Shown here: piece by piece, positions 1 to 28,965 of the stretch
Position numbering within the stretch: the stretch's first letter is position 1
Layout: each line of letters begins with the position of its first letter
From: Candidatus Nomurabacteria bacterium RIFCSPLOWO2_01_FULL_33_17
GTDB taxonomy: Bacteria > Patescibacteriota > Minisyncoccia > Phycocordibacterales > UBA9973
Length of the DNA: 35,961 bases
Assembly (NCBI GenBank): GCA_001786995.1
Contig: MFUO01000004.1
Location: 1 to 35,961, forward strand
Direction: 5' to 3'
The notes under the pieces: model-generated
What the model saw: the letters and a program-made list of their open reading frames with translations, nothing else
Database searches by the model: none
What the model was told of the DNA's origin: nothing
Made by a program: the position numbers and the translations under genes

Positions 1-317
1 TAGTCCAATCCTGTTTCCCCTATAGCTACAACTTTTTCATTTTTAGCTAATTCCAAATATTTCTCATAATCAAAAACCTCATCCGGATTACCTGCCTGTC
101 CGGTAGGCAGGTCATTCGGGTGTTGCCCTACAGTCGCCCATAAAATATCAGGACGATCATTGGCCATTTCAACTGCTAATTTAGATGTCTCATAATCAGT
201 CCCAACAGTAATTGTCCCAATACCTGCATCTCGCATATTCTGTATTATCTGGTCTTTATTTTCCAAAAGTGGCGAAAGGTTTAAATGCGAATGAATGTCG
301 ATGTAATTTAGCTTCAT
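1..317 (-). CDS. TatD-family metal-dependent hydrolase, N-terminal ~105 aa (gene continues beyond the left window edge)
   Basis: Own minus-strand translation from ATG at 315-317 gives MKLNYIDIHSHLNLSP...WATVGQHPNDLPTGQAGNPDEVFDYEKYLELAKNEKVVAIGETGLD. It has the HxH metal motif and the GETGLD motif of TatD/YabD. It is missing from the ORF track because the window holds no stop codon for it. Confidence 0.75.
   Translation of the reverse strand, partial: MKLNYIDIHSHLNLSPLLENKDQIIQNMRDAGIGTITVGTDYETSKLAVEMANDRPDILWATVGQHPNDLPTGQAGNPDEVFDYEKYLELAKNEKVVAIGETGLD
87..113. repeat. 27-nt palindromic module in frame in the tatD-like gene
   Basis: attacctgcctgtccggtaggcaggtc, with stem cctgcc/ggcagg. 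It encodes DLPTGQAGN. Confidence 0.7.
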
Positions 318-339: not shown

Positions 340-1812
340 TTATTCTTTCCTTAAAAACAACGGATGCTCGGGTTTTTTATTTTGTTTTATTAATTCTTGA
401 ATCTTTTGTGAAGTTTCAGGTAAAAATGATTTTAACATTTCTGAAATATTATATAATTCTAAAACCATTTCGGAAATTAATTCTTTGCCTTTTTGTTCAT
501 CTACTTTCACTACTTTGAATGGCTCCGACTCTTGGATTTTTTTATCTAAATCTTGAATTTTATCCCATATAAAATCCATAGCATGTTTAATTTCAAATTT
601 TCCCAAATAATCCGAAAGTTCTTGAGATATTAAATTTTCAGAAAGTTCTATATGATCATCTAGGTATTTTTCTGAAAGAGTGAGAATACGCGATGTTAAA
701 TTTCCTAGTCCATTTGCAAGTCCTGAATTATAGGCATCTTTAAATCTTTCAATTGTAAATGGTGAATCTTCAAAATTTGAAATTTCACGAAGTAAAAAAT
801 ATCGCAAAGCATCCGTATTGTAATCTTCCACGATAGTACGAGGATCAACTACATTACCAAGTGTTTTACTCATTTTTATCCCTGCATCACCTGTTATGAA
901 TCCATTTACTACTATTTGATATGAATTGGGCACACTGGCGGCCATTAACATGGCTTGCCACATTGCACCCTGAAAGCGTGTATTGTCTTTGCCACAATAC
1001 TGCGTTGGAGTGCCATTCACCCAGTATTTTTCAAATAAACCCAACCCCTCCTCAGTCCTCCCCTTATCAAGGGAGGAAGTAGAACCCCACCCCAGTGTAT
1101 TTATATAATTCGTCAATGCGTCAAACCATACGTACATGACTTGTGTATCATCACCCGGTACAGGTATACCCCATGGCATTTTTTCAACCTTGCGTGAAAT
1201 TGAAAAATCTTGCAAGCCACTTGAAACAAAGTTTTTAATTTCATTAAATCTAAAATCAGGAATTATAAAACTTGAGTTTTTTTCATAAAATTCTAAAAGT
1301 TTTTCACCAAATTCAGAATATTTAAAAAAATAATTTTCTTCTTCAATTTTTTGAAGCTCGACTCCAAGATGATCAGGGCAAAATCCGTCATCATTCAATT
1401 CACTGTCAGTTTTTTCTGATTCGCAACCAACACAATACTTTGCTTCATAATTTTTTTTATAAATATAACCATTATTATAAACTATTTTCCAAAATTCTTG
1501 TGCTCCCATTTCGTGTTTCTTGTCAGTTGTACGGATAAAATGTGCATCAGAACTTATTCCAAATATTTCAAGTTGTTTTTTAAATGTTTCAAAACCAGAA
1601 TCAACAAAATCTTGAACATTAAGACCTGCTTCCCGTGCTTTTTCATAAATTTTTATACCATGCTCATCAGTACCAGTATTAAAAAATACATCAAAACCAA
1701 TTGATTTTTTATATCGTGCTATTGTATCAGCTCGAATAAATTCTAAAGCATGCCCCATATGTAATGGAGCGTTAACATAAGGTAGTGTCGTTGTAATATA
1801 AAAAGGCTTCAT
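340..1812 (-). CDS. metG: methionine--tRNA ligase (short form, no C-terminal tRNA-binding domain)
   Basis: 490-aa ORF with class I HIGH-type motif (PLHMGHALE), KMSKT motif, a Cys knuckle (CVGCESE...CPDH) and the conserved WFDALTNY segment. Confidence 0.95.
   Translation of the reverse strand: MKPFYITTTLPYVNAPLHMGHALEFIRADTIARYKKSIGFDVFFNTGTDEHGIKIYEKAREAGLNVQDFVDSGFETFKKQLEIFGISSDAHFIRTTDKKHEMGAQEFWKIVYNNGYIYKKNYEAKYCVGCESEKTDSELNDDGFCPDHLGVELQKIEEENYFFKYSEFGEKLLEFYEKNSSFIIPDFRFNEIKNFVSSGLQDFSISRKVEKMPWGIPVPGDDTQVMYVWFDALTNYINTLGWGSTSSLDKGRTEEGLGLFEKYWVNGTPTQYCGKDNTRFQGAMWQAMLMAASVPNSYQIVVNGFITGDAGIKMSKTLGNVVDPRTIVEDYNTDALRYFLLREISNFEDSPFTIERFKDAYNSGLANGLGNLTSRILTLSEKYLDDHIELSENLISQELSDYLGKFEIKHAMDFIWDKIQDLDKKIQESEPFKVVKVDEQKGKELISEMVLELYNISEMLKSFLPETSQKIQELIKQNKKPEHPLFLRKE
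1041..1093. repeat. GC-rich hairpin repeat embedded in frame in metG
   Basis: ccaacccctcctcagtcctccccttatcaagggaggaagtagaaccccaccc is about 60% GC, with stem tcctccc/gggagga at 1056-1077. It encodes GWGSTSSLDKGRTEEGLG. Confidence 0.75.
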
Positions 1813-2932: not shown

Positions 2933-4195
2933 CTATATTTTTAAAATAGTTTTATCAAGTTTTACCCCATCAGGCCCAACGATGGCAAGCCTAAGATTCT
3001 CGGATTTTATTATTTCTTTGGCTATTTTTTGGATGTCTTTTGGTTTTACAGATAAAATCTCTTTTTCTTTGTCTTTCATTGTTTTTATTTCATTTTTTAA
3101 AATCAATTGCTGCCCATAAAATCCAGCTATATCGTCACTTGATTCTAAGCCCAATTTCATATTCCCTATTAATGAATTTTGTACTTTTTTAAGCTCTTTA
3201 TCTCCCACTAACTCAATTGTTAATTTTTTTAATTCAGAAATTAAAACTTTTATAACTTCTTGTAATCTTCCTGTTGTTACACCAGCATTAATTACAAACA
3301 TGCCTGTTTCATGTCTTGCAGTTATACCCGAGCTAACATAATAACAAACACCCATTTCTTCACGCAATTTGTTAAATAGTCTTGAAGACATACCTGCCCC
3401 AAGAATAGCCGACAATATGCGTAATGTTTTATTTTTAGGATTATTCCGTCCATATGATTTTAATCCTAACATCATATGAATTTGATCTGTCTTTTTATTT
3501 TTTATTTTAATTTTTGTTTTATCTTGTATAAAAGATTTTAATTTTTTATTTGGATTTTTATTATTTAATTTACCAAAAGTATTTTCTATTTCTTTGTAAA
3601 CTATTTTAGTATCAATATTGCCAGTTACAACTACCACTGTATTAGGTGCAGTATATTGGGCATTTTTATATTTAACAAAATCATCTCTTTTCATATTTTT
3701 AACAGTTGTATGAGTACCAGCAATATTTCGTCCCGATGGGGTATCCCCATAAACAAGCTCGTCAAATACATCATGGACAAGTCTCGCTGGCATGTCTTCA
3801 TACATATTTATTTCTTCAATTATTACACCTTTTTCTTTCTCAATTTCTTTTTCCGGGAAAATCGAATTCAAATATACATCCCCAACAACATCTAATAATT
3901 TTTTAAAATGTTTAGAATCACCTTTGGCATAATAACCTGTCATTTCATGATCAGTAAAAGCATTGTATTGGCAACCAAGCATGTCTAATTCATGTGAAAT
4001 AATACTTACATTTGGGCGTTTAACAGTACCCTTGAAGCACATATGCTCTAAAAAGTGCGAGACTCCACCTAAATCCTTGGTCTCATAATCTGACCCTGTA
4101 CCTACCAAAACCAAAACTGTAACTGTTGGATTATCCTTCATAGGGACAGTAACCACACGCAATCCATTTTTTAATGTGTTTAAATTATATTTCAT
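2933..4195 (-). CDS. M16-family (pitrilysin/insulinase-like) zinc peptidase
   Basis: 420-aa ORF with the inverted zinc motif HFLEH (HxxEH) near the N-terminus and two M16-like halves. Confidence 0.85.
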   Translation of the reverse strand: MKYNLNTLKNGLRVVTVPMKDNPTVTVLVLVGTGSDYETKDLGGVSHFLEHMCFKGTVKRPNVSIISHELDMLGCQYNAFTDHEMTGYYAKGDSKHFKKLLDVVGDVYLNSIFPEKEIEKEKGVIIEEINMYEDMPARLVHDVFDELVYGDTPSGRNIAGTHTTVKNMKRDDFVKYKNAQYTAPNTVVVVTGNIDTKIVYKEIENTFGKLNNKNPNKKLKSFIQDKTKIKIKNKKTDQIHMMLGLKSYGRNNPKNKTLRILSAILGAGMSSRLFNKLREEMGVCYYVSSGITARHETGMFVINAGVTTGRLQEVIKVLISELKKLTIELVGDKELKKVQNSLIGNMKLGLESSDDIAGFYGQQLILKNEIKTMKDKEKEILSVKPKDIQKIAKEIIKSENLRLAIVGPDGVKLDKTILKI

Positions 4196-5061: not shown

Positions 5062-5095
5062 ATAACGAACTATCACGACCGTGATAGTTCGTTAT
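5062..5095. promoter_or_regulatory. perfect 16+2+16 palindrome ataacgaactatcacg-ac-cgtgatagttcgttat (candidate operator and/or terminator hairpin)
   Basis: Read directly from the sequence. It lies between the regulator stop (5112) and the hydrolase start (5020). It shares the core TATCACG-N2-CGTGA and the outer ATAAC/GTTAT with the palindrome at 5604-5637. Confidence 0.6.
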
Positions 5096-5111: not shown

Positions 5112-5594
5112 TTATATTTTAATTTTAACGGCACTAAAAATTTTTATATTCTTTTTAATACCAAGTAGCTCTAAATGATTTTTAAAATTGTCAGTCAATT
5201 TACCTTTTCCAAACCAAACGCTTTGTTGAATCATTATAAAACCCCATAACTTTAATTGTTTGCGTAACCAGTCACGAATCTTTCTTTTTTCTTCTGGAAT
5301 ATCAAACATAACCATAACACCATCTGTATTTTCTTCTTTTTTAAAATACGTTGAAGTACTCTTAGCATTTATATATTTCTTATGATCAAGAACAATATCA
5401 TCTTTGATTAATTTAATAAAACCTTGTTTTTTTAACCTATACAAACTTTGAGAAAATGCTTGTTTTTTTTGTTTATCTCTTCCTTCAACAAGATTTCGGA
5501 GTATTTTTGTTTGTAAAGACTTTGATTTACATGACAAAAGATGACTTATTATTAACTCAGTAAAAGTTGCTCTTTCCCAATATGGTTGTTTCAT
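5112..5594 (-). CDS. winged-helix plus Cas2-fold (PaaX-like) putative transcriptional regulator
   Basis: The C-terminal VMFDIPEEKRKIRDWLRKQLKLWGFIMIQQSVWFG matches the Cas2-like ferredoxin module of PaaX-type regulators. The N-terminal half looks like a wHTH. I prefer the ATG at 5594 (MKQPYWE...) over the track's GTG at 5618, which lies inside the upstream palindrome. Confidence 0.6.
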   Translation of the reverse strand: MKQPYWERATFTELIISHLLSCKSKSLQTKILRNLVEGRDKQKKQAFSQSLYRLKKQGFIKLIKDDIVLDHKKYINAKSTSTYFKKEENTDGVMVMFDIPEEKRKIRDWLRKQLKLWGFIMIQQSVWFGKGKLTDNFKNHLELLGIKKNIKIFSAVKIKI

Positions 5595-5603
5595 TTTTCT
5601 ATT

Positions 5604-5637
5604 ATAACTATTTATCACGGTCGTGACAAATAGTTAT
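5604..5637. promoter_or_regulatory. 34-bp near-perfect palindrome ataactatttatcacg-gt-cgtgacaaatagttat (candidate operator)
   Basis: Read directly from the sequence. It sits in the divergent region between the regulator (start 5594) and the GT2 gene (start 5676). It has the same length and architecture as 5062-5095. Confidence 0.6.
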
Positions 5638-10579: not shown

Positions 10580-13500
10580 TTAATTTATATCTATATCAAA
10601 AATTAAATTATCTATCTTAAAGACAGACCCATTTATCTCCTCTCCCAATACCATCTCTTTTGCCGATACTTCACTAAGTAATGCTTGCTCCCAAAAATTT
10701 AGAAAATCTTTCCCTTTATCATTTGTTTTTATTTGAACTGTTATTTTATCATGGGCTTTTAATCCACGGGCTTTACGCATATCTTGGACAAATCTTACTA
10801 ATTCACGAAAATTACCTTCGCTTTTTAATTCTTCATTTATTTCTGTGTCAAAATCAACCTTGTCACCAATGACGACACTTTCTACATTTAATTCATCAGC
10901 GACGATCACAATATAATCCATAGATAAATTATCTGTTATAAAAAATGTTCGAAGTATTTGGCGAACAGGAATACCATATTTTTTTCGAAGAGAATGTCCA
11001 ACAGTGCAAATATCTTGAACTTTCTCCATTGTTTCTAAAATAAAATCAGATTCTGGTATACCAAAATAATCGGGCCAATTTACTAAATGCACGCTTATTG
11101 GGTCAGATTCTAATCTTAAATCTTGCCATAATTCTTCGGCAACAAATGGTGTAAATGGCGCCATGATTTTAGCTAAATTTTTTAAAACAAAATACAATGT
11201 ATTATGGGCATCCATATCACCCCCACGAATTCGCAAACGCGAACGACGAGTATACCATGTTGATAATTCATCTATAAAATTTCTAATTTCTCTTGTTGGT
11301 GGAAGTAATGAATAATTATCCAATGATAAAGTTGTATTTTTTATAAGATTCATTAATTTAATTAATATCCATTTATCCAATACATTATTGCTATTTGGTA
11401 TACTAAAAAGATTTTCTTTTGTTTTGTCACGATAAAGATCGTAGAAAGCATAAACATTACGAAGAAGATTAAAAACTTTTTTAATTACTTCATCTACTGT
11501 TTTTTCGTCAAAATTTTTAAAATCCCCTGGTTGGTTAATACTATACATCCAAAAACGCAATGCATCAGCTCCGAATCGGTTACACAAATCCCATGGATCA
11601 ACAGTATTACCACGAGATTTAGACATTTTTTGTCCATCTTTATCCATTACAAGCCCAAGACAAATTACATTTTTATATGCTGGCCCGCGCCCCATAAGAG
11701 CTGATACAGCATGTAAAGTATAAAACCAACCGCGAGTTTGGTCTATACCTTCACAAATATAATCAGCAGGAATTGATACTTGGTCTGTTTTAAAGGGATA
11801 ACCATCTTGGGCAAATGGCATACAACCAGAATCAAACCAACAATCCATGACTTCGGGAACTCTTTGTAATTTATTTCCATTTTTATCATAAACTGGATAA
11901 TCATCAATATATGGCCGGTGTAAATCAAGTTCATAATTTTCATTATGTGGCAATGGAACAAAATCTAATTCTTTCCATTCGGCGTTTTGTGAATAATGAA
12001 AATCTTCAATATTATTAGGAATTTCATTTTTACTCAATCCTAAAGAACCAATAACCATATTCAAAACTGGCCCACCATGGGAAAAAATTAAAATATTTTT
12101 GTTTTGATATTTTTCCTCAAAATCATAAAGCGCATTCATGACTCTATTTTTTACATCTTGATAATTTTCTCCATCTTTATTTTCTTTTATGTAGCGGTCT
12201 TTGTAATTTGAGAAAAGTCCCAAGAAATCACCAAGATCACGACCTTGGTAAATTTCCCCTGGATTCATTTCGCACAATCTTTCATCAAAAATAATCTCAT
12301 TTTTGTCATACCCAATTACATCCGCTACTATTTCAGCTGTCATTTTTGTTCTCAACAATGGCGAACAAATTATAAGATCTATATTTTTATCTTTCAAACC
12401 TTGCGCGGAATTTTGTACTTGATCTTTACCCTTTTCAGTTAACTTTACAATACTATTTGGTTTTGAATCCCAAACATTTTTTATATTATTTTCTGCTTCA
12501 CCATGACGCATTACAAAATATTTATTTCCAGATTTTTTTGTAGCGGCCTGCAAATCTTTATGATTCGTAAAAATATGTTTTTCTCCGTTTTGCCCTATCC
12601 AAACAGGTAATGGCGTACCCCAATATCTTTCGCGTGATATTGCCCAATCTTTTACTTCGCGTAGCCATTCACCAAATCGTCCATTTTGAATATGCTTGGG
12701 TTCCCAATTTATAAAATCATTATTCATGACCAAATCATCACGAAGCTCACTCATCCGGATGTACCATGAATCTCGAGTATAATAAATAAGTGGAGTTTGA
12801 CAGCGCCAACAATATGGATAACTATGTTCGTATTTTTCTTTTTTAAACAGTAGTCCACGATGGGCTAAATCTTTAATTATATCAATTGCGACTTGTTCAT
12901 CTTTTACAAATCTATTGCTCAATTCTAATTCATCAGAATTCATTTCGGAATTAAAAGTTCCATCTAATCCAACTAAATGATATTTTGGAAGACCAAGTTT
13001 TGTACCCAATTCAAAATCATCTTGTCCATACATAACTGCTGTATGCACTATCCCAGTCCCATCATTGGCATTTACGAAACCTGCTTCATAAACTTTGTAT
13101 GCTTTATCTAAATTTCCTGTCTGTCCGGTAGGTAGGTCTTTTTGCTCGTGAGATATTTGATTAACAAAAAATGGATACAGTGGTTCATAAGATAAACCAA
13201 TTAAATCTTTACCAATATATTCTTCAACTATTTCATACTCTCCATCAACTATACTTAACCTGTCTTTACCTAAGATCAAAAAATCTGCATCTTTTTTAAT
13301 TTTTACATACGACAAATCAACATTAACAGCCAATGCAACATTACCGGGTAATGTCCAAGGAGTAGTAGTCCAAGCTAGCAAATATGTATTTTCTTGTCCA
13401 AGAATTTTAAATTTTGCAGTAATAGATAAATCTTTTACATCTTTATAACCTTGCGCTAGTTCATGTGATGACAATGCTGTACCACACCTTGAGCACCACG

Positions 13501-14035
13501 GCACAATTCGATAGTCTTTATAAAGTAAATTTTTCTTATCAACTTCGGCTACGATATTCCAAAGTGATTCTATGTAATTTGATTCATAAGTAATATAAGG
13601 ATTATCTTGATCAATCCAATACCCAACTCTATCAGTAAATTTTTGCCATTCATCAATATAAGTCCAAACGCTTTTTTTACATTCATTATTAAAATTTCCT
13701 ATTCCATATTCTTCAATTTGTTTTTTGTTTACAAAACCAAGTTCTTTTTCAACTTGTAATTCAACTGGTAGTCCATGTGTGTCCCAGCCACCCTTGCGAC
13801 CTACATGGTACCCCTGCATTGTTTTATAACGAGGTATTGCATCTTTAAAAGCTCGAGCTTCTAGATGATGAATTCCAGGACGACCATTGGCAGTAGGTGG
13901 CCCATCATAAAAAACAAATTCACCATTTGGAGAATCTTTTTCCAAACTTTTTTCAAAGATTTTATTATCCTTCCAAAAAGACATGATTTCCAACTCATGC
14001 TCGTTTATTGATTTACTTATTTTCTCTTCTTTCAT
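10580..14035 (-). CDS. ileS: isoleucine--tRNA ligase (type 2) with an inserted histidine-phosphatase domain
   Basis: Has the editing-domain TTPWTLPGN, WAISRERYWGTPLPVW, EGIDQTRGWFY and KMSKSRGN. The true start is probably the ATG at 14035 (MKEEKISKS...). The track's extra 16 codons (MFCCMWTSFYLDNINY) lie on the T-box terminator. Confidence 0.95.
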   Translation of the reverse strand: MKEEKISKSINEHELEIMSFWKDNKIFEKSLEKDSPNGEFVFYDGPPTANGRPGIHHLEARAFKDAIPRYKTMQGYHVGRKGGWDTHGLPVELQVEKELGFVNKKQIEEYGIGNFNNECKKSVWTYIDEWQKFTDRVGYWIDQDNPYITYESNYIESLWNIVAEVDKKNLLYKDYRIVPWCSRCGTALSSHELAQGYKDVKDLSITAKFKILGQENTYLLAWTTTPWTLPGNVALAVNVDLSYVKIKKDADFLILGKDRLSIVDGEYEIVEEYIGKDLIGLSYEPLYPFFVNQISHEQKDLPTGQTGNLDKAYKVYEAGFVNANDGTGIVHTAVMYGQDDFELGTKLGLPKYHLVGLDGTFNSEMNSDELELSNRFVKDEQVAIDIIKDLAHRGLLFKKEKYEHSYPYCWRCQTPLIYYTRDSWYIRMSELRDDLVMNNDFINWEPKHIQNGRFGEWLREVKDWAISRERYWGTPLPVWIGQNGEKHIFTNHKDLQAATKKSGNKYFVMRHGEAENNIKNVWDSKPNSIVKLTEKGKDQVQNSAQGLKDKNIDLIICSPLLRTKMTAEIVADVIGYDKNEIIFDERLCEMNPGEIYQGRDLGDFLGLFSNYKDRYIKENKDGENYQDVKNRVMNALYDFEEKYQNKNILIFSHGGPVLNMVIGSLGLSKNEIPNNIEDFHYSQNAEWKELDFVPLPHNENYELDLHRPYIDDYPVYDKNGNKLQRVPEVMDCWFDSGCMPFAQDGYPFKTDQVSIPADYICEGIDQTRGWFYTLHAVSALMGRGPAYKNVICLGLVMDKDGQKMSKSRGNTVDPWDLCNRFGADALRFWMYSINQPGDFKNFDEKTVDEVIKKVFNLLRNVYAFYDLYRDKTKENLFSIPNSNNVLDKWILIKLMNLIKNTTLSLDNYSLLPPTREIRNFIDELSTWYTRRSRLRIRGGDMDAHNTLYFVLKNLAKIMAPFTPFVAEELWQDLRLESDPISVHLVNWPDYFGIPESDFILETMEKVQDICTVGHSLRKKYGIPVRQILRTFFITDNLSMDYIVIVADELNVESVVIGDKVDFDTEINEELKSEGNFRELVRFVQDMRKARGLKAHDKITVQIKTNDKGKDFLNFWEQALLSEVSAKEMVLGEEINGSVFKIDNLIFDIDIN
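11960..12523 (-). other. histidine phosphatase (PGAM-superfamily) domain embedded in ileS
   Basis: KYFVMRHGEAENN, ICSPLLRTKMTAEIV, ERLCEMNPGEIYG and ILIFSHGGPV are all present, in frame, between two conserved IleRS segments. Confidence 0.8.
13112..13138. repeat. 27-nt palindromic module in frame in ileS
   Basis: atttcctgtctgtccggtaggtaggtc differs from the tatD-like copy at two stem positions plus one flanking base. It encodes DLPTGQTGN. Confidence 0.7.
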
Positions 14036-14241
14036 ATAATTTATATTATCCAAATAAAAACTCGTCCACATACAACAAAACAAATTGTTATATAAGGACG
14101 AGTTTCACTCGTGGTACCACCTTAATTACTTCTCATTTACTGGATTCTAATCCCCTAAATTAGGGTTTCTTTCCAAAGCCTGCCTGCCTAAATTTTACAA
14201 ATTTTAGTAGGCTCCGGGGCGATACTCCCATCATTGCTTAT
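14036..14241 (-). promoter_or_regulatory. T-box leader (tRNA-sensing riboswitch) controlling ileS
   Basis: The minus-strand RNA contains AAUUAAGGUGGUACCACGAG (T-box core; + strand 14106-14125). A terminator follows: AAACUCGUCC...GGACGAGUUU plus UUUUAUUU (14053-14105). A GAUGGGAG K-turn-like start and a possible AUC specifier (+ strand 14221-14223) are also present. Confidence 0.8.
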
Positions 14242-14278: not shown

Positions 14279-14701
14279 TTATTTTTTACCAGTACTACCA
14301 AACATTCCAAGACCACGAGCTGATTCACTTAAAGTATCTGTTTCCTCTAATTCACCAATAACAACTGGCATAATGACAAGTTGAGAAACTTTGTCACCAA
14401 CTTCAAAAGTATAAGGCTCATTTGATAAATTTACCAAAAGCGTATTATATTCACCCCTATATCCAGCATCAAAAACCCCACCCATATGATGAAGCCCAGC
14501 TTTTGAAATACTTCCCTTGTCCATTATAATTCCTCCATACCCTTCGGGAAATTCCAATGCAAATCCATGCCAAAACCGATAATGCTCACATGGCTTTAAT
14601 GTAACCGTTTCCATTGCATACATATCCATCCCCACATCTCCCGGATGAGCATAACTTGGCAACTTTGCATTATCTTTTAATCTTTTTACTTTTATTTTCA
14701 T
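14279..14701 (-). CDS. dut: dUTP diphosphatase
   Basis: 140-aa ORF with dUTPase motifs (HPGDVGMD, FDAGYRGE, C-terminal RGLGMFGSTG). Confidence 0.9.
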   Translation of the reverse strand: MKIKVKRLKDNAKLPSYAHPGDVGMDMYAMETVTLKPCEHYRFWHGFALEFPEGYGGIIMDKGSISKAGLHHMGGVFDAGYRGEYNTLLVNLSNEPYTFEVGDKVSQLVIMPVVIGELEETDTLSESARGLGMFGSTGKK

Positions 14702-14801
14702 CCACCTAAACTTTTCACTTATATAATATTTATTTTCATGAAAAATACTTTAATTTATTAATTATACCAAAGATTTCTAATTTAAAAAAGTTTTGGCGGA
14801 T
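14700..14801 (-). repeat. ~100-nt structured intergenic cassette, copy A (between tmk and dut)
   Basis: Terminal inverted repeats are atccacctaaactttt (14700-14715) and aaaagttttggcggat (14786-14801). One end overlaps the dut ATG and the other abuts the tmk TGA. The interior contains TGgTATAAT on the minus strand. Confidence 0.85.
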
Positions 14802-15506
14802 TCATTTTATCTTTAATACTTTCTTAATATTATTAAATACTTCTTCATGAATGTCTTCGCGGGTGCGGATGGATTTCTTTTCAGCACAATCTATTTTAAT
14901 AAAGTTTTTAAGTTTTGTTGCCAGCCACATTGCGCTTTTGCGAGAATTTATTAAAAAATCTTTGTCGGATTCATGAACATCTTTTTTATTTTTTAAATAA
15001 GACCTTTTTGTTTTTTTATTTCGTTCATCAATTAATTTTAATATAATGTCTATTGGCAAACTAAGATACAAAACAATATCCGGTCGTGGAATTTTAAAAA
15101 CTTTATATTCCATCTCGTCTAACCATTCTAAATATGCTTCGCGTTTTTTATTACTTTTTATTTTACCACCTTGGTGAATTTGATTAGCACTAACATAACG
15201 GTTAGCAAGCACAATATATCCCCCATCGAGCCATTTACGAATTTCACTTGATGATTCAAATCTGTCCGCAGCGTATAGCACTGATGCAATTTTAGGATGA
15301 ACTTTCAAAAAGTTAAAATACTGTTCACTCAAGCAATGCCCAATAAATCCCCCAAAGAAATTTTTATAATATTCAGGAAAATCAACGGTTTTTATTTTAA
15401 AACCATCTTTTTTAAGTCTTTTGGCAAGTAAATCAATTTGTGTGGTTTTACCAGATCCATCAGTACCATCTATTACAATAAGTTTTCCTTTTTCTTTTTT
15501 ATTCAT
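14802..15506 (-). CDS. tmk: thymidylate kinase
   Basis: 234-aa ORF with P-loop VIDGTDGSGKTTQ, the DRY-like ADRF segment and a lid region. Confidence 0.9.
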   Translation of the reverse strand: MNKKEKGKLIVIDGTDGSGKTTQIDLLAKRLKKDGFKIKTVDFPEYYKNFFGGFIGHCLSEQYFNFLKVHPKIASVLYAADRFESSSEIRKWLDGGYIVLANRYVSANQIHQGGKIKSNKKREAYLEWLDEMEYKVFKIPRPDIVLYLSLPIDIILKLIDERNKKTKRSYLKNKKDVHESDKDFLINSRKSAMWLATKLKNFIKIDCAEKKSIRTREDIHEEVFNNIKKVLKIK

Positions 15507-15600
15507 CCGCCTAAACTTTTCACTTATTATAATATTTTATTTTTGTAAAAAGTAATCTAATCTAATAATAATTTCTAATTTAATAAAGTTTTGGTGGATA
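15505..15600 (-). repeat. ~100-nt structured intergenic cassette, copy B (between RluA-family gene and tmk)
   Basis: Terminal inverted repeats are atccgcctaaactttt (15505-15520) and aaagttttggtggat (15586-15600). The distal arm encodes the last 8 codons plus the stop (LSTKTLLN*) of the upstream gene. Confidence 0.85.
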
Positions 15601-26082: not shown

Positions 26083-26610
26083 ATGAAAAACAATGACTAC
26101 TTCAACCTATTAAAAATAGGTCTAATTGTAAAAATTATTGCATTGGCACTAACTGTGATTTTATTAATCCTAGTGATAGGAAGCAAATCTGCCTTTGGGC
26201 AAACAAAACCCCAAAACAAAATCAAGAAAAAGGCTGAAAAACAAGTAGAGTTTGTTTTAAACTACGAGTTGCAGTTTGATTCAATAACAGTAGTAATCCC
26301 ATGGATCCGCCTACAAGAGAATCAAGAAATCAGCTCTCTATCTTGGATATTAAAAGAGTATTTACAAAAATCTGGTGATACCTTGTGGTTGGAAATTCCC
26401 AAAGGGTACACCCCCTTCTCAAGAGAATATCCTGATAATAAAAGCCTTATAAATACCGCAATGGTTGAAATAAGGCAAGGTTATTCTCCCGGATTTAAAA
26501 AGGAAGACGAAGAGATATTTTATATCCCGGAGTCTGAGATTATAGGGAACCGATTCCCTATTTGCACAAATACAAAAAAGGAAAGACTGTATATATACAT
26601 CTACTTATAG
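26083..26610 (+). CDS. membrane-anchored hypothetical protein
   Basis: 175-aa ORF with one N-terminal TM/signal anchor (IIALALTVILLILVIGS). No motifs recognised. It is followed by a terminator. Confidence 0.5.
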   Translation: MKNNDYFNLLKIGLIVKIIALALTVILLILVIGSKSAFGQTKPQNKIKKKAEKQVEFVLNYELQFDSITVVIPWIRLQENQEISSLSWILKEYLQKSGDTLWLEIPKGYTPFSREYPDNKSLINTAMVEIRQGYSPGFKKEDEEIFYIPESEIIGNRFPICTNTKKERLYIYIYL

Positions 26611-26634
26611 ATTGTTGGGTTCAAACCCAATAAG

Positions 26635-26660
26635 GCGTGTCTTAAAAGATGCGCTTTTTT
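26635..26660 (+). terminator. intrinsic terminator
   Basis: gcgtgtc-ttaaaa-gatgcgc (with G-U pairs) followed by tttttt. Confidence 0.55.
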
Positions 26661-26728
26661 ATTTGCAATTATGAATTTATTTAAAAACTTACCCTAAAAA
26701 ACATTTAAAATTGGGCTTATTTTAGCCC

Positions 26729-26757
26729 TTGACAAATCCATCCGAATTTGCTATACT
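26729..26757 (+). promoter_or_regulatory. near-consensus sigma70 promoter TTGACA-17-TATACT
   Basis: The -35 ttgaca is at 26729-26734 and the -10 tatact at 26752-26757, with an exact 17-nt spacer. This is the best promoter match in the window. Confidence 0.6.
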
Positions 26758-27160
26758 GTCCCCAAGATGCAACAACACCGATGAGACGGATTTGGATGCA
26801 GGAAAATTCCTGGTAAACATCCCCCGTCCGTGGCTTATGCATCAACGCCGAGATGGTCAGGTATGGGGAAAGACCCCACTTAAATGCCTAGATCGTCAAT
26901 TTAGTTCTTTTATTACATATGTAATTTAAATATAAACCAAATAGAAAGGTTTGTAAGTAAATGACATAATTGATTCTTGAGTCAGAGTTATAAGAATCAT
27001 AAATAGAAGAACGTAAGTTTTGTAAACTCCTCTTTTTATTTTTTAGGAAATGACCGCAGGCAAATGATATCGAAAGATAAACGCAACCGCCACCGGATAA
27101 TCCAAAATAAAAAGAGCATAACCACAAAAACTATAATTTACTCTGAAGTTATAGGGTTAT

Positions 27161-27184
27161 GATAAAGAAAGCCCATTAACGGGC
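27161..27184 (-). terminator. possible terminator of the SIMPL gene
   Basis: The minus strand reads gcccgttaatgggc followed by tttctttatc. Confidence 0.35.
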
Positions 27185-27190
27185 ACAGAT

Positions 27191-27225
27191 GCGGCAGCCA
27201 ATTGGTTGCCGCTTTTTTATTTTTT
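27191..27225 (+). terminator. intrinsic terminator (plus strand)
   Basis: gcggcagcc-aatt-ggttgccgc followed by ttttttatttttt. Confidence 0.7.
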
Positions 27226-27227
27226 AT

Positions 27228-28019
27228 TTACCTTATTTCGTAAGTTATCGAAACATTTGATGTATATTTATTTTCACCCATTGGAATTTCTGGAATTATA
27301 GATTTTTCCATAGCACCATCGCGCATCATAGTTGCGCCACCGTACATTGGATATATTCCCCCACCATTATTTTCTGAAAAATTTTGAATTTTTACAAGTC
27401 TTACACCAAGTTGAGCGGACAATGTTCGCGCTTTAGATTTTGCATCTCCAATTGCATCAGTGCGAGCTTTGTTTCTTGCTTCATCTTCGTTTGCTAATGT
27501 AAATTCTGGGCCTGATACATTTGTTGCACCCCATTCGGTCAATTTACCAGCAACTTCCCCTGCAAGATCAATGTCTTTAATTTTCACACTGACGGTTTGG
27601 TTAAAAGTATAACCAACAGCTACATTTTTACCATCGGGTTGTGGACATGGTGCACGAACACAATATATTGTTTGTTGTTGCCATTCGTATTTTGGATTTA
27701 GAGAAAAATTAATTGTTTTTAAATCTTTATCATCCATATCATAATCTTTCTTTAATTTAGCCAAAATATTATTCATGACTTCACTACCTGCATCTTTGGC
27801 TTGTTTTTGAGTAATGGCATCCTTCTCTACAGTAAAAGTAAACAACGCTGTATCGGGTATTGCAAAATATTCACCAGTACCATCTACGGTAATAGTTGCA
27901 ACTGGCTTGTTTTCATCATTACGATTAAAAGCACCATAAGCATTAGCTAGGAAAAATATAGACAAACAAACACTGGTAATAATGATAAGATTTGTCAAAA
28001 GCTTTTTATTTTCAAACAT
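27228..28019 (-). CDS. SIMPL-domain (DUF541) protein
   Basis: Has an N-terminal TM anchor and a typical SIMPL layout ending ...YTSNVSITYEIR. The ATG at 28019 (MFENKKLL...) is preferred. The track's GTG at 28061 lies in the GC-rich repeat. Confidence 0.75.
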   Translation of the reverse strand: MFENKKLLTNLIIITSVCLSIFFLANAYGAFNRNDENKPVATITVDGTGEYFAIPDTALFTFTVEKDAITQKQAKDAGSEVMNNILAKLKKDYDMDDKDLKTINFSLNPKYEWQQQTIYCVRAPCPQPDGKNVAVGYTFNQTVSVKIKDIDLAGEVAGKLTEWGATNVSGPEFTLANEDEARNKARTDAIGDAKSKARTLSAQLGVRLVKIQNFSENNGGGIYPMYGGATMMRDGAMEKSIIPEIPMGENKYTSNVSITYEIR

Positions 28020-28075
28020 AAATTTATATATTAAGAGTAATACAGCTATTATAGCACACACCCCCTCTTAAATCT

Positions 28076-28091
28076 CCCCCTTAGCAGGGGG
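28076..28091. repeat. GC-rich hairpin repeat (ccccc-ttagca-ggggg)
   Basis: It is preceded by cacacaccccctc, giving the same organisation as the other family members. Confidence 0.6.
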
Positions 28092-28180
28092 CGAAACAGC
28101 GAAGCAAAATTGTCTTTTTGAAAATGTCTGGTGAGCCAACCCGAGGACTTTTTAAAAAGATTATTTTGCGTAGCTGATTT

Positions 28181-28864
28181 TTATGCTATTTTATTCGTTA
28201 TATCAGAAACAATTTTGCCATCTACCAAAAAAATAGTCCTGTCAGACATATGGGCATATTCAACTTCGTGCGTAACCATAATAATGGTTTGACCTTCATG
28301 ATTTAGCTTTAAAAACAAATCAATGATATTTTTTGAAGTCTCTGTATCTAAATTAGCTGTTGGCTCATCAGCAAAAAGAACTTTCGGATTATGTGATATT
28401 GCCCGGGCAATGGAGACTCGTTGCTGTTGCCCTCCGGAAAGTTGACTAGGTAAATTATGCATTCTATCTTCCAATCCAACTTTAGTTAAAGCTTCAATTG
28501 TCTTGTTTTCTGCTTGCTTGTCATCCAGACCCAACATTAACAATGGGACCATGACATTTTCAAATGCAGTTAATGATGGCAATATTGCGTAATCCTGAAA
28601 TATATAACCAAGATTTTTTAATCGCATACTACTTTTTTGATTTTCATCTAAAGATTCGGTATTAATATCATCAATTATAATTTGACCATCAGTTGGTGTA
28701 TCTAATAATCCTAATTGATAAAGTAATGTTGATTTACCACTACCTGACTTTCCAGAAACTGTTAAAAACTGACCATCTGGAATAGTAAAAGACACATCAT
28801 CGAGTGCTCGAATTGGTGAATCACCATTCTCAAAAATTTTAGCTAAATTTTTTATTTGTATCAT
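28181..28864 (-). CDS. ABC transporter ATP-binding protein (MacB/LolD-like)
   Basis: 227-aa ORF with Walker [10 protein letters not shown], signature LSGGQQQR and Walker B LFADEPT. Confidence 0.9.
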
Positions 28865-28965
28865 CCTCCTAAACTTTTCACTTATATAAGTTATTTATTT
28901 TTGTGAAAAGTATTTTAATTTATTAAATAATAATTAAGACCTAATTTAAAAAAGTTTCGGCGGAT
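28863..28965 (-). repeat. ~100-nt structured intergenic cassette, copy D (between FtsX permease and ABC ATPase)
   Basis: Terminal inverted repeats are atcctcctaaactttt (28863-28878) and aaaagtttcggcggat (28950-28965). AGGAGG lies flush against the ATPase ATG. Confidence 0.85.

What the first reader, a model, noticed from the sequence alone, without database searches (positions are those of the whole stretch)
1041..1093. GC-rich hairpin repeat inserted in frame inside methionyl-tRNA synthetase
A 53-nt island of about 60% GC interrupts the roughly 30% GC metG gene. It encodes GWGSTSSLDKGRTEEGLG, between the conserved WFDALTNYINTLG and FEKYW...GKDNTRFQ segments.

Its core (cccctcctcagtcctccccttatcaagggaggaagt, stem tcctccc/gggagga) is clearly the same element as the intergenic hairpin at 19470-19510 (cccctccctaagtccctccccttataaatgggagggact). 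A palindromic repeat that otherwise lives between genes has therefore landed in an essential gene, with the frame preserved.

This is analogous to the Rickettsia palindromic elements, which are known to sit in frame in coding genes.
Basis: partly seen in the sequence, partly recalled or inferred. Interest (0 to 1): 0.65.

Follow-up and report, generated by a model that had tools for sequence, protein, structure and literature searches.

The report
In-frame palindromic repeat inside MetRS
A 40-base GC-rich palindromic repeat that normally lies between genes sits in frame inside the methionyl-tRNA synthetase gene of an AT-rich Paceibacteria (CPR) genome, adding a floppy 11-residue surface loop at a position where related genomes repeatedly carry other such inserts.

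Summary
Window 1041-1080 (C-box CCAACCCCTCC plus hairpin CCTCCCC/GGGAGG) lies in frame in metG (340-1812, minus strand). It matches the intergenic copy at 19470-19512 (31/33 aligned bases) far beyond chance. Three more intergenic copies share the same architecture.

The same element occurs, at up to 33/36 identity, in other Paceibacteria loci, in at least 118 metagenome contigs (28-72% GC) and in 32 viral contigs, often as inverted doublets.

Most MetRS orthologues (73 of 120) have a short loop here (TLGWPxxxGDFEKYW). The window has a net +11 residues, and AlphaFold2 predicts them as a low-confidence coil between two helices.

Unexpectedly, 47 of 120 orthologues carry different inserts at exactly this codon, right after TGGCC. 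The ones examined at DNA level are mostly GC-rich hairpin sequences, in both orientations. Filled and empty alleles occur in proteins 92-97% identical.

A second in-frame hairpin of another family sits in the neighbouring tatD (91-111).

This is the RPE / intragenic-REP / mitochondrial GC-cluster kind of phenomenon: a new family in a new host, not a new kind. How the element moves is unknown; no transposase was found. The same-site recurrence is the interesting residue.

The parts
340..1812 (-). metG (methionyl-tRNA synthetase, 490 aa), the host gene
   Evidence: ORF. Precomputed Pfam families PF09334/PF00133 and 8000 homologues. PDB MetRS 2csx at E = 7e-93.
1041..1080 (+). One unit of the C-box + hairpin repeat, written on its C-rich strand (the mRNA carries the G-rich complement). 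C-box CCAACCCCTCC at 1041-1051; hairpin CCTCCCC-TTATCA-(A)GGGAGG at 1057-1076. Together with remodelled flanks it is translated as residues ~S244-L259.
   Evidence: 33/36 ungapped identity to L093 and near-identity to copies in L135, L136 and L004.
1081..1093 (+). It encodes the native G241-W242 plus the remodelled G243-S244; it is not clearly element-derived.
   Evidence: Alignment with orthologues. G and W are conserved in at least 90% of 60 sequences.
19470..19512 (+). Intergenic copy, same subfamily as the metG copy. It lies in the divergent nusG / TPR-RDD-gene spacer.
   Evidence: RNA fold z = -3.39.
19417..19455 (+). Intergenic copy, sister subfamily: CTCACCCC-TGC-CCCTCTCC-TGACAA-GGAGAGGGG.
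   Evidence: local alignment score 34.
16925..16963 (+). Intergenic copy (ACCTCACCC-TA-CCCTCTCC-CCAAAGC-GGAGAGGG) between convergent genes.
28056..28096 (+). Intergenic copy (ACACCCCCTC-TTAAAT-CTCCCCC-TTAGCA-GGGGGCG) between the SIMPL and ABC-ATPase genes.
   Evidence: The same subfamily occurs in L004, L008 and L021.
91..111 (-). Second in-frame GC-rich hairpin, from a different family: CCTGCC-TACCGGACA-GGCAGG. It encodes LPTGQAG inside tatD.
   Evidence: RNA fold z = -4.31. A related copy, LPTGKAG, lies in another gene of L012.

Best explanation
Window 1041-1080 is one unit of a dispersed, non-autonomous, GC-rich palindromic repeat family. A unit is a C-rich box followed by a 7-9-bp CCTCCCC/GGGGAGG hairpin, and units are often paired as inverted doublets elsewhere. 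This unit has become part of the metG reading frame.

It is not removed. The ribosome reads straight through it. The result is a net 11-residue Ser/Gly/Glu/Lys-rich extension of a surface loop between two helices of the catalytic domain.

It persists because this loop tolerates almost any hydrophilic insert (a selection filter), not because the insert has a function. The genome is under steady bombardment by such elements. Copies that land in genes are usually purged, so most survivors lie between genes.

Shown: family membership, frame preservation, absence from most orthologues, loop location (by prediction), depletion from coding DNA, and recurrence at this site.

Inferred: neutrality, and the way the copy arrived (de novo insertion, or gene conversion / patch replacement of a previously occupied site). 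The mobilising enzyme is unknown.
For: Family membership.
- 31/33 identity to the 19470 copy; score 41 against a null of 22.3 +/- 2.0.
- Shared pattern: 2 hits against 0 in 100 shuffles.
- Five copies of the architecture in the window against 0 in each of 30 randomisations; 58 in window + 83 loci against 0-1.
- 33/36 ungapped identity to a copy on a 60%-GC metagenome contig, plus near-identical copies in L004, L135 and L136.
- At least 118 metagenome contigs and 32 viral contigs carry the hairpin. 83% of the 135 metagenome matches also carry the upstream box, which was not part of the search pattern, and 47% have an inverted partner within 45 nt; for the 39 viral matches the figures are 62% and 38%.

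Insertion status.
- 73 of 120 orthologues have the short loop, as do the PDB MetRS.
- The insert is identical in every cluster member covering the site, from several samples.

Loop location. AF2 pLDDT is below 50 at residues 245-253, a coil between H228-238 and H255-265, in a model with mean pLDDT 81.

Read-through. The copy is in frame with no stop codon. All 16 copies internal to long ORFs keep the frame, and no split genes were seen.

Purifying filter. One of 5 window copies is coding, although 89% of the window is coding (P = 0.0007).

Generality.
- A second in-frame hairpin lies in tatD.
- Lineage-specific GC-rich inserts occur in tatD, ProRS-like, IleRS and FtsK-like genes of related loci.

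Precedent. Intragenic REPs (including in tRNA synthetase genes) and RPEs are documented (PMC3733652; PMC10969869).
Against: - No empty-site sister genome was found. The nearest relatives (78% and 76% identity) already carry other inserts at this codon, so a simple insertion event is not demonstrated.
- No target-site duplication or terminal inverted repeat is evident at the metG copy.
- No transposase is present in the window, and none is enriched among 150 ORFs next to copies elsewhere.
- 47 of 120 orthologues are filled at exactly the same codon, with insert sequences of several families. Those examined as DNA are mostly GC-rich hairpins, in both orientations. This is more concentrated than a passive filter obviously predicts: 10 of 12 GC-rich metG inserts are at this one site.
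- In two of three close filled/empty pairs, the 45 nt on the 3' side of the insert are the most or second-most divergent stretch of the gene. This hints at co-transferred flanks or compensatory change.
- The hairpin energy of the metG copy is unremarkable for its composition (z = -0.49).
- Neutrality is untested.
Confidence: 0.7

Rival explanations
1. Site-directed spread (homing-like). The codon after TGGCC in metG is a preferred target or exchange point. GC-rich hairpin cassettes are copied into it, or swapped between alleles of different Paceibacteria, by break repair / gene conversion, carrying some flanking sequence with them.
For: - The 5' boundary is always immediately after GGNTGGCC(N), in every family and in both orientations.
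- The same insert classes (FADAQDLRPEE, SASGISPLAGGEE, KTCA..CSAEH, RSAEA.GEGD) recur in lineages no more related than average. Within-class identity is 0.76-0.80 against 0.774 overall, with empty alleles as nearest neighbours.
- Filled/empty pairs exist at 97%, 95% and 92% protein identity.
- The 45 nt on the 3' side of the insert carry 20 mismatches against a gene mean of 4.0 +/- 3.3 in L234/L235, and 16 against 4.8 in L236/L237.
- Filled alleles mostly end ..E[ED][ND]LF, whereas empties end xxxG[DN]F.
- Precedent: yeast mitochondrial GC clusters in var1 spread by unidirectional gene conversion (PMC8811140).
Against: - No nuclease or recombinase candidate was identified.
- The third pair (L238/L239) shows no elevated flank divergence.
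- The NJ tree at 70-78% identity is nearly star-like, so 'independent' acquisitions are weakly resolved.
- A fixed 5' boundary is also expected if W242 must be kept and only the following loop is permissive.
- Flank divergence can be compensatory substitution.
Confidence: 0.2
2. The insert is kept because it does something. At RNA level, the G-rich hairpin with SD-like GGAGG tracts could pause ribosomes, stabilise the mRNA or time folding. At protein level, the loop could create a new contact.
For: - On the mRNA the element reads CUUCCUCCC-UUGAUAA-GGGGAGGA-CUGA-GGAGGGG, with two strong Shine-Dalgarno-like tracts and an anti-SD-like arm.
- The insert is fixed and identical in all sampled members of the 90% cluster.
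- Element sequence is strongly conserved across very different genomes.
Against: - Orthologues carry unrelated sequences, opposite orientations or nothing at this site, so no common RNA or peptide feature is conserved there.
- The predicted loop is disordered.
- Copies are depleted from coding DNA.
- Cross-genome conservation applies equally to intergenic copies, so it reflects the element's own propagation rather than metG.
Confidence: 0.08
3. It is not a mobile repeat at all: a lineage-specific loop expansion whose GC-rich, palindromic look arose locally (slippage, or template switching at the TGGCCA quasi-palindrome) and resembles the intergenic hairpins by compositional convergence.
For: - Some inserts in other genomes build their stem partly from the target itself, for example GGCCTAAAA...TTTTAGGCC in L238 and CCCGCC...GGCGGG starting in the Pro codon in L082.
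- The loop is naturally variable among MetRS.
Against: - For the window copy, 36-40 nt match dispersed copies at 92-97% identity, including loop and spacer bases that are not constrained by pairing.
- The pattern is absent from shuffles.
Confidence: 0.03
4. The element is skipped rather than translated (translational bypass as in Magnusiomyces mitochondrial 'byps', or RNA-level excision), or it is an assembly artefact.
For: - GC-rich hairpin inserts in AT-rich mitochondrial genes can be bypassed (PMC8811140).
- The element is a strong local hairpin.
Against: - The frame is preserved with no stop. All 16 internal copies in related loci are also in frame, which bypass would not require.
- The identical protein was assembled independently from several samples and sources, on 11 contigs.
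Confidence: 0.02

Closest known systems
Rickettsia palindromic elements (RPE; Ogata et al. 2000, as summarised in PMC10969869 and PMC3733652)
   Same: - Palindromic repeats that also occur between genes.
- Found in frame inside housekeeping genes of a small, AT-rich genome.
- Read through as extra surface peptide.
- No own coding capacity.
   Different: - RPEs are ~100-150 bp and confined to Rickettsia and relatives. This unit is ~40 nt (doublets ~75-90 nt).
- This family is GC-rich in a 32%-GC host.
- It is found in contigs of 28-72% GC and in viral contigs.
- Sequence similarity to RPE consensi was not tested.
REP / REPIN elements and intragenic REPs (Di Nocera et al. 2013, PMC3733652; Bertels & Rainey REPIN concept)
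   Same: - 20-40-nt GC-rich imperfect palindromes, frequently as inverted doublets.
- Mostly extragenic, with a minority inside ORFs, including tRNA synthetase genes.
- Non-autonomous.
   Different: - No GTAG or CGTC tag at either end.
- No RAYT/TIRYT gene found nearby.
- An extra C-rich box lies 5' of the hairpin.
- The family is conserved across very different genomes, whereas REP families are usually species- or genus-specific (own knowledge).
[quoted passage not shown]
   Same: - Short GC-rich palindromes in a very AT-rich genome.
- Mostly intergenic but also as optional in-frame inserts in a protein gene, with alleles with and without the insert.
- Several cluster families use the same sites.
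- Spread is linked to gene conversion.
   Different: - Organellar rather than bacterial.
- Unrelated sequences.
- Flanking AG/TAG repeats reported for yeast clusters are not seen here.
MITEs (e.g. Correia/NEMIS, ERIC, Nezha; review PMC10969869)
   Same: - Small non-autonomous repeats.
- The doublet form has terminal inverted repeats (box + hairpin on each side).
- Occasional in-frame fusions with host ORFs.
   Different: - No target-site duplication recognised.
- The single unit in metG is far below MITE size.
- No parent IS known.

Membership tests
C-box + CCTCCCC-hairpin repeat family (defined here) | 7-9-bp pyrimidine-rich 5' arm (CCTCCCC-type), 4-8-nt loop (TTRTCA-type), complementary G-rich arm | tested here: met
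   Window 1057-1076, CCTCCCC-TTATCA-(A)GGGAGG.
C-box + CCTCCCC-hairpin repeat family (defined here) | C-rich box (A)ACCCCTCC 2-5 nt upstream of the hairpin, on the same strand | tested here: met
   CCAACCCCTCC at 1041-1051. The box is present in 83% of 135 metagenome matches although it was not part of the search pattern.
C-box + CCTCCCC-hairpin repeat family (defined here) | Multiple dispersed copies, far above chance | tested here: met
   5 in the window against 0 in 30 randomisations; 58 against 0-1 in 1.38 Mb. The whole source genome could not be examined.
REP (GTAG/CGTC super-families) / REPIN | 20-40-nt imperfect palindrome, often in inverted doublets | tested here: met
   Unit ~40 nt. 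47% of metagenome copies have an inverted partner within 45 nt, for example L126 1538-1612.
REP (GTAG/CGTC super-families) / REPIN | Conserved GTAG or CGTC tetranucleotide at one end (PMC3733652) | tested here: not met
   The flanks of aligned copies are AACCCCTCC..(5') and AGC/AAG..(3'). No GTAG or CGTC is conserved on either strand.
REP (GTAG/CGTC super-families) / REPIN | Cognate RAYT (Y1 HUH transposase) gene flanked by the repeats | tested here: inconclusive
   No transposase among 31 window ORFs. None among the 25 most frequent Pfam families of 150 ORFs next to copies. Complete genomes were not available.
Rickettsia palindromic elements | In-frame insertion in functional ORFs with the peptide on the protein surface | tested here: met
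   In frame. Predicted disordered loop. Surface exposure is inferred from the model, not measured.
Rickettsia palindromic elements | ~100-150-bp elements of RPE-1..10 sequence families, in Rickettsiales | tested here: not met
   The element is ~40 nt. The host is Paceibacteria-like by MetRS homologues. Sequence comparison with RPE consensi was not run.
MITE | Terminal inverted repeats plus target-site duplication | tested here: inconclusive
   Doublets have inverted box + hairpin ends. No consistent direct repeat was seen at the metG copy or in filled/empty pairs.
Translational bypass elements (byps) | Insert interrupts frame or carries stops and must be skipped | tested here: not met
   Frame open through the element. 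16 of 16 internal copies are in frame.

The most novel reading that the evidence does not exclude
The loop codon after TGGCC in Paceibacteria metG is a genuine exchange site. Unrelated GC-rich hairpin cassettes, including a short palindromic element family shared by bacteria from 28 to 72% GC and by phage-like contigs, are repeatedly copied in, swapped and lost there. The process would be homing-like gene conversion with co-converted flanks, driven by a machinery that is not a linked transposase and has not been described.
Probability: 0.2. Interest if true: 0.8.

Novelty: new member of a known kind. Interest (0 to 1): 0.5.

Why it matters
In-frame palindromic repeats in housekeeping genes have been documented mainly in Rickettsia, in a few REP-rich proteobacteria and in mitochondria. 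This finding extends the phenomenon to the CPR/Patescibacteria. It concerns a repeat family for which I found no Rfam model and no paper containing its sequence.

It also provides a natural experiment. One loop of an essential enzyme exists in dozens of filled and empty versions among close relatives. That makes two questions testable:
- how such elements enter genes (random hits filtered by selection, or targeted conversion);
- how much sequence a synthetase loop will tolerate.

There is a practical side as well. These inserts inflate apparent protein divergence. They can also seed spurious 'hypothetical proteins' and misalignments in CPR genome annotation.

Tried and rejected
- The repeat finder on the whole window was swamped by AT-rich chance matches and did not report the family. 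MAFFT could not register the hairpins, so I did not build a covariance model and used a purpose-written structural scan instead.
- Rfam found nothing in the window at gathering thresholds. On doublet-bearing loci it gave only sub-threshold miRNA-hairpin noise.
- No tRNA or tmRNA genes in the window.
- BLAST of a doublet against PLSDB plasmids gave no match, possibly because of the low-complexity filter.
- Literature searches for CPR in-frame palindromes and for the element sequence itself found nothing specific.
- Transposase search: none in the window and none enriched near copies.
- The GGGGWSAS motif of TIRYT-flanking repeats (PMC3733652) fits the GGGGTGAG box of the sister subfamily but not the metG subfamily. 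I left it as a lead only.
- Hairpin stability as evidence: rejected for the metG copy (z = -0.49).
- Bypass, intron or intein readings: rejected on frame and size.
- A clean target-site duplication at metG (GGGGTT on both sides) was considered, but it is not reproducible in other pairs.
- The genome-contig collection does not contain the source genome (best 74% identity), so neither a genome-wide census nor an empty-site sister could be obtained.
Full report
**What is at the coordinates.** The window is 32.5% GC. metG is the minus-strand ORF 340..1812 (490 aa). It has thousands of MetRS homologues, the closest labelled Paceibacterota/Nomurabacteria (CPR). Window 1039-1097 is a 59%-GC island. 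On the coding strand it reads CTG GGG TGG GGT TCT ACT TCC TCC CTT GAT AAG GGG AGG ACT GAG GAG GGG TTG GGT TTA TTT, that is L-G-W-G-S-T-S-S-L-D-K-G-R-T-E-E-G-L-G-L-F. The stem TCCTCCC/GGGAGGA is present.

**Is it the same element as 19470-19510, beyond chance?** Yes.
- Local alignment gives 31 identities in 33 aligned bases with three 1-nt gaps. The score is 41, against a best score of 22.3 +/- 2.0 (maximum 27) in 40 Markov-1 randomised windows.
- A pattern spanning 23-25 nt of shared sequence hits exactly these two places and nothing in 100 dinucleotide shuffles.
- A structural scan looked for a pyrimidine-rich 5' arm, a 4-10-nt loop, a complementary arm and a C-rich box within 16 nt upstream. 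It finds five copies in the window, all with the C-rich strand on +: 1041-1080, 16925-16963, 19417-19455, 19470-19512 and 28056-28096. Thirty randomised windows gave none.
- The hairpin energy of the metG copy is ordinary for such a composition (z = -0.49). The intergenic copies score z = -1.2 to -3.4. Homology carries the argument, not folding.

**The family is much wider than the window.**
- The same scan over 83 related loci (1.38 Mb in total with the window) gives 58 box-plus-hairpin hits, against 0-1 in randomisations. The hits fall in nine sources, and several subfamilies are shared between genomes.
- Among the 135 metagenome matches, 83% also carry the box AACCCCTCC, which was not in the search pattern, and 47% have a second, inverted hairpin within 45 nt. 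Examples of these REPIN-like doublets are L126 1538-1612 and L159 271-360. The 39 viral matches show the box in 62% and the partner in 38%.
- The metG unit is 33/36 identical, without gaps, to a copy on a 60%-GC contig, and nearly identical to copies in L135, L136 and the Nomurabacteria locus L004.
- On this evidence the element-derived DNA in metG is about 1041-1080.

**Is it an insertion in MetRS?**
- Of the 120 best homologues, 73 have the short form TLGWPxxxG[DN]FEKYW, with a modal protein length of 480 aa. The window has a net +11 residues.
- Solved MetRS structures have short loops here: Aquifex 2csx reads ...NYISALE-DK-VEIYW and Brucella 4dlp reads ...ALGYPDTTDERWAYW.
- An AlphaFold2 model built on 60 homologues (mean pLDDT 81.3, pTM 0.82) places residues 239-254 in coil between helices 228-238 and 255-265. 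pLDDT is below 50 at 245-253. The only other such segment is the mobile KMSKS loop, residues 306-318.
- All members of the 90% cluster that cover the site, from several samples and assemblers, carry the identical insert. An assembly artefact is therefore excluded.

**The unexpected part: an insertion hotspot.**
- 47 of the 120 homologues, and 16 of 58 parsed genome loci, are longer at exactly this position, and their insert sequences differ from one another.
- At DNA level most of these inserts are GC-rich (about 42-62% GC across the insert region, up to 0.86 for individual inserts, in genomes of 29-52% GC) and most can form hairpins.
- They come from several families and lie in both orientations. 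L008 carries CACCACCCC-GCCCTAAAGGGC-ACCCCTCCT-CAGGC-AGGAGGGG, which is the window's type of element inverted. L004 carries a G-orientation relative. Other examples are the RSAEA.GEGD, FDPAQ..RPEE, ASAQGYGEAKP and KTCA..CSAEH classes.
- The 5' boundary is always directly after GGNTGGCC(N).
- Within metG, 10 of 12 GC-rich lineage-specific inserts are at this one site.
- Filled and empty alleles are interspersed on a tree built without the insert columns. They occur in proteins 97% (P0025/P0063), 95% (P0010/P0035) and 92% (P0049/P0097) identical. P0117 and P0039 (91% identical) carry different inserts.
- Members of one insert class are no more similar to each other in the rest of the protein than random pairs (for example 0.762-0.798 against 0.774 overall).
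- In the L234/L235 pair, the 45 nt immediately 3' of the insert hold 20 mismatches against a gene mean of 4.0 +/- 3.3, the maximum in the gene. In L236/L237 the window holds 16 against 4.8. In L238/L239 the flank is not unusual.
- The window's nearest relatives (78% and 76% identity) already carry other inserts there. No empty-site sister of the window genome exists in the data I could reach.

**It is a general habit of these genomes.**
- In the window itself, tatD (partial ORF 3-317, minus strand) contains CCTGCC-TACCGGACA-GGCAGG (91-111, RNA fold z = -4.3). It encodes LPTGQAG where short orthologues have nothing. Compare VGQHPND-LPTGQAG-NPDEVFDYEKY with L013 VGQHPADN-I-EEEFDLEKY.
- A near-identical hairpin encodes LPTGKAG in a different gene of L012.
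- Syntenic tatD, ProRS-like, IleRS and FtsK-like genes in related loci show further lineage-specific GC-rich hairpin inserts. Some belong to the window's family.
- All 16 copies that lie well inside long ORFs keep the reading frame. The two cases with different frames on either side are gene junctions. Nothing suggests bypass or split genes.
- Genic copies are nevertheless under-represented. 89% of the window is coding, but only 1 of its 5 copies is (binomial P = 0.0007).

**Mechanism, with what is shown and what is inferred.** I commit to the passenger model at about 0.7 confidence.
- Shown: the segment is a unit of a dispersed palindromic repeat family. It is in frame and stop-free. It is absent from most orthologues and from solved MetRS. 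It sits in a predicted disordered loop. The family is depleted from coding DNA, and the same loop accepts many unrelated inserts.
- Inferred: it is translated through; it is selectively near-neutral; it is retained only because this loop is permissive.
- Open: how it arrived. Simple insertion, or gene-conversion-like replacement at an already occupied site, are both compatible with the data. I give the homing-like version about 0.2.
- Open: what moves it. The window has no transposase. Among 150 ORFs within 1.5 kb of copies elsewhere, no family is enriched.
- A functional role for the RNA hairpin, the SD-like tracts or the peptide is unlikely, because neither sequence nor orientation is conserved at the site among orthologues.

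**Comparison with what is known.**
- Functionally it behaves like the Rickettsia palindromic elements and like the intragenic REPs catalogued by Di Nocera et al., who list tRNA synthetase genes among the hosts (PMC3733652; PMC10969869).
- It is not a member of either group. RPEs are 100-150 bp and rickettsial. The two REP super-families are defined by a GTAG or CGTC tag that these elements lack. No RAYT was found.
- The best analogy in genome ecology is the GC clusters of yeast mitochondria. These are short GC-rich palindromes in an AT-rich genome. They are optional in-frame inserts in var1 and spread by gene conversion (PMC8811140). Sponge and placozoan mitochondria have similar hairpin elements (PMC2800124, PMC7813641).
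- Rfam 15 has no model for the element. No paper in the searchable library contains its core sequence.

**Verdict.** The finding is correct and its interpretation is sound. By kind it is a new member of a known class, so the base interest is moderate. Two things lift it. One is the recurrence of different GC-rich hairpin inserts at a single codon of an essential gene across a radiation of CPR genomes. The other is the very wide distribution of the element family across genomes. Both are unexplained and testable.

Noticed in passing
window 91-111 (tatD, minus strand): A second in-frame GC-rich hairpin from a different family: CCTGCC-TACCGGACA-GGCAGG, encoding LPTGQAG. It is absent from short tatD orthologues. 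A near-identical hairpin encodes LPTGKAG in another gene of L012.
   Followed up: yes
window 10580-14083 (minus strand): The 1167-aa IleRS-like class I synthetase carries a complete histidine-phosphatase domain (PF00300, residues 523-706) inserted between the two halves of the catalytic core. The same architecture is seen in L082/L083 and L235.
   Followed up: no
window 5062-5095 and 5604-5637, flanking ORF 5112-5618: A PaaX-middle / Cas2-like protein gene is bracketed by two 34-nt near-perfect palindromes (ATAACGAACTATCACGACCGTGATAGTTCGTTAT / ATAACTATTTATCACGGTCGTGACAAATAGTTAT). They could be operators or ends of a small cassette.
   Followed up: no
window 14673-14757, 15478-15562, 17927-18011, 28836-28920: Four genes (dUTPase, thymidylate kinase, DUF975, ABC ATPase) share a conserved upstream module, on the minus strand ..TATATAAGTGAAAAGTTTAGG[TCA]GGATG. 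It looks like a common promoter plus short leader, SD and start codon.
   Followed up: no
window 26610-27228: A 600-nt gene-free stretch with two GC-rich islands (26818-26877, 27169-27213). Rfam gives only chance-level matches. It could hold an unmodelled RNA.
   Followed up: partly
L004 17176-17227 and 18109-18129; L008 17423-17475 and 18357-18377: Two different species carry an inverted doublet plus a third unit of the repeat family, in frame, at corresponding positions of the same ~750-aa minus-strand ORF (FtsK-like by synteny with L082). This is either another shared hotspot or an old insertion.
   Followed up: partly
L084-L233 (metagenome and IMG/VR contigs): The box + hairpin unit AACCCCTCC-NN-CCTCCCCTTRTCAGGGGAGG is nearly invariant on contigs from 28% to 72% GC and on phage-like contigs. 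That is unusually broad for a REP-like repeat. Neighbouring genes show no common mobilisation gene.
   Followed up: partly
L014 11449-11469; L004 11513-11943; L025 11441-11534: Units of the family sit exactly at the metG-tatD junction or inside a small unannotated ORF between the two genes. In L014 the metG and tatD frames appear continuous across the element.
   Followed up: no
L238 insert in metG (about 3700-3760): The KTCA..CSAEH-class insert ends in TTTTAGGCC, the reverse complement of the target GGCCTAAAA. Target plus insert therefore form one long hairpin. This hints that some inserts are built by template switching at the site.
   Followed up: no
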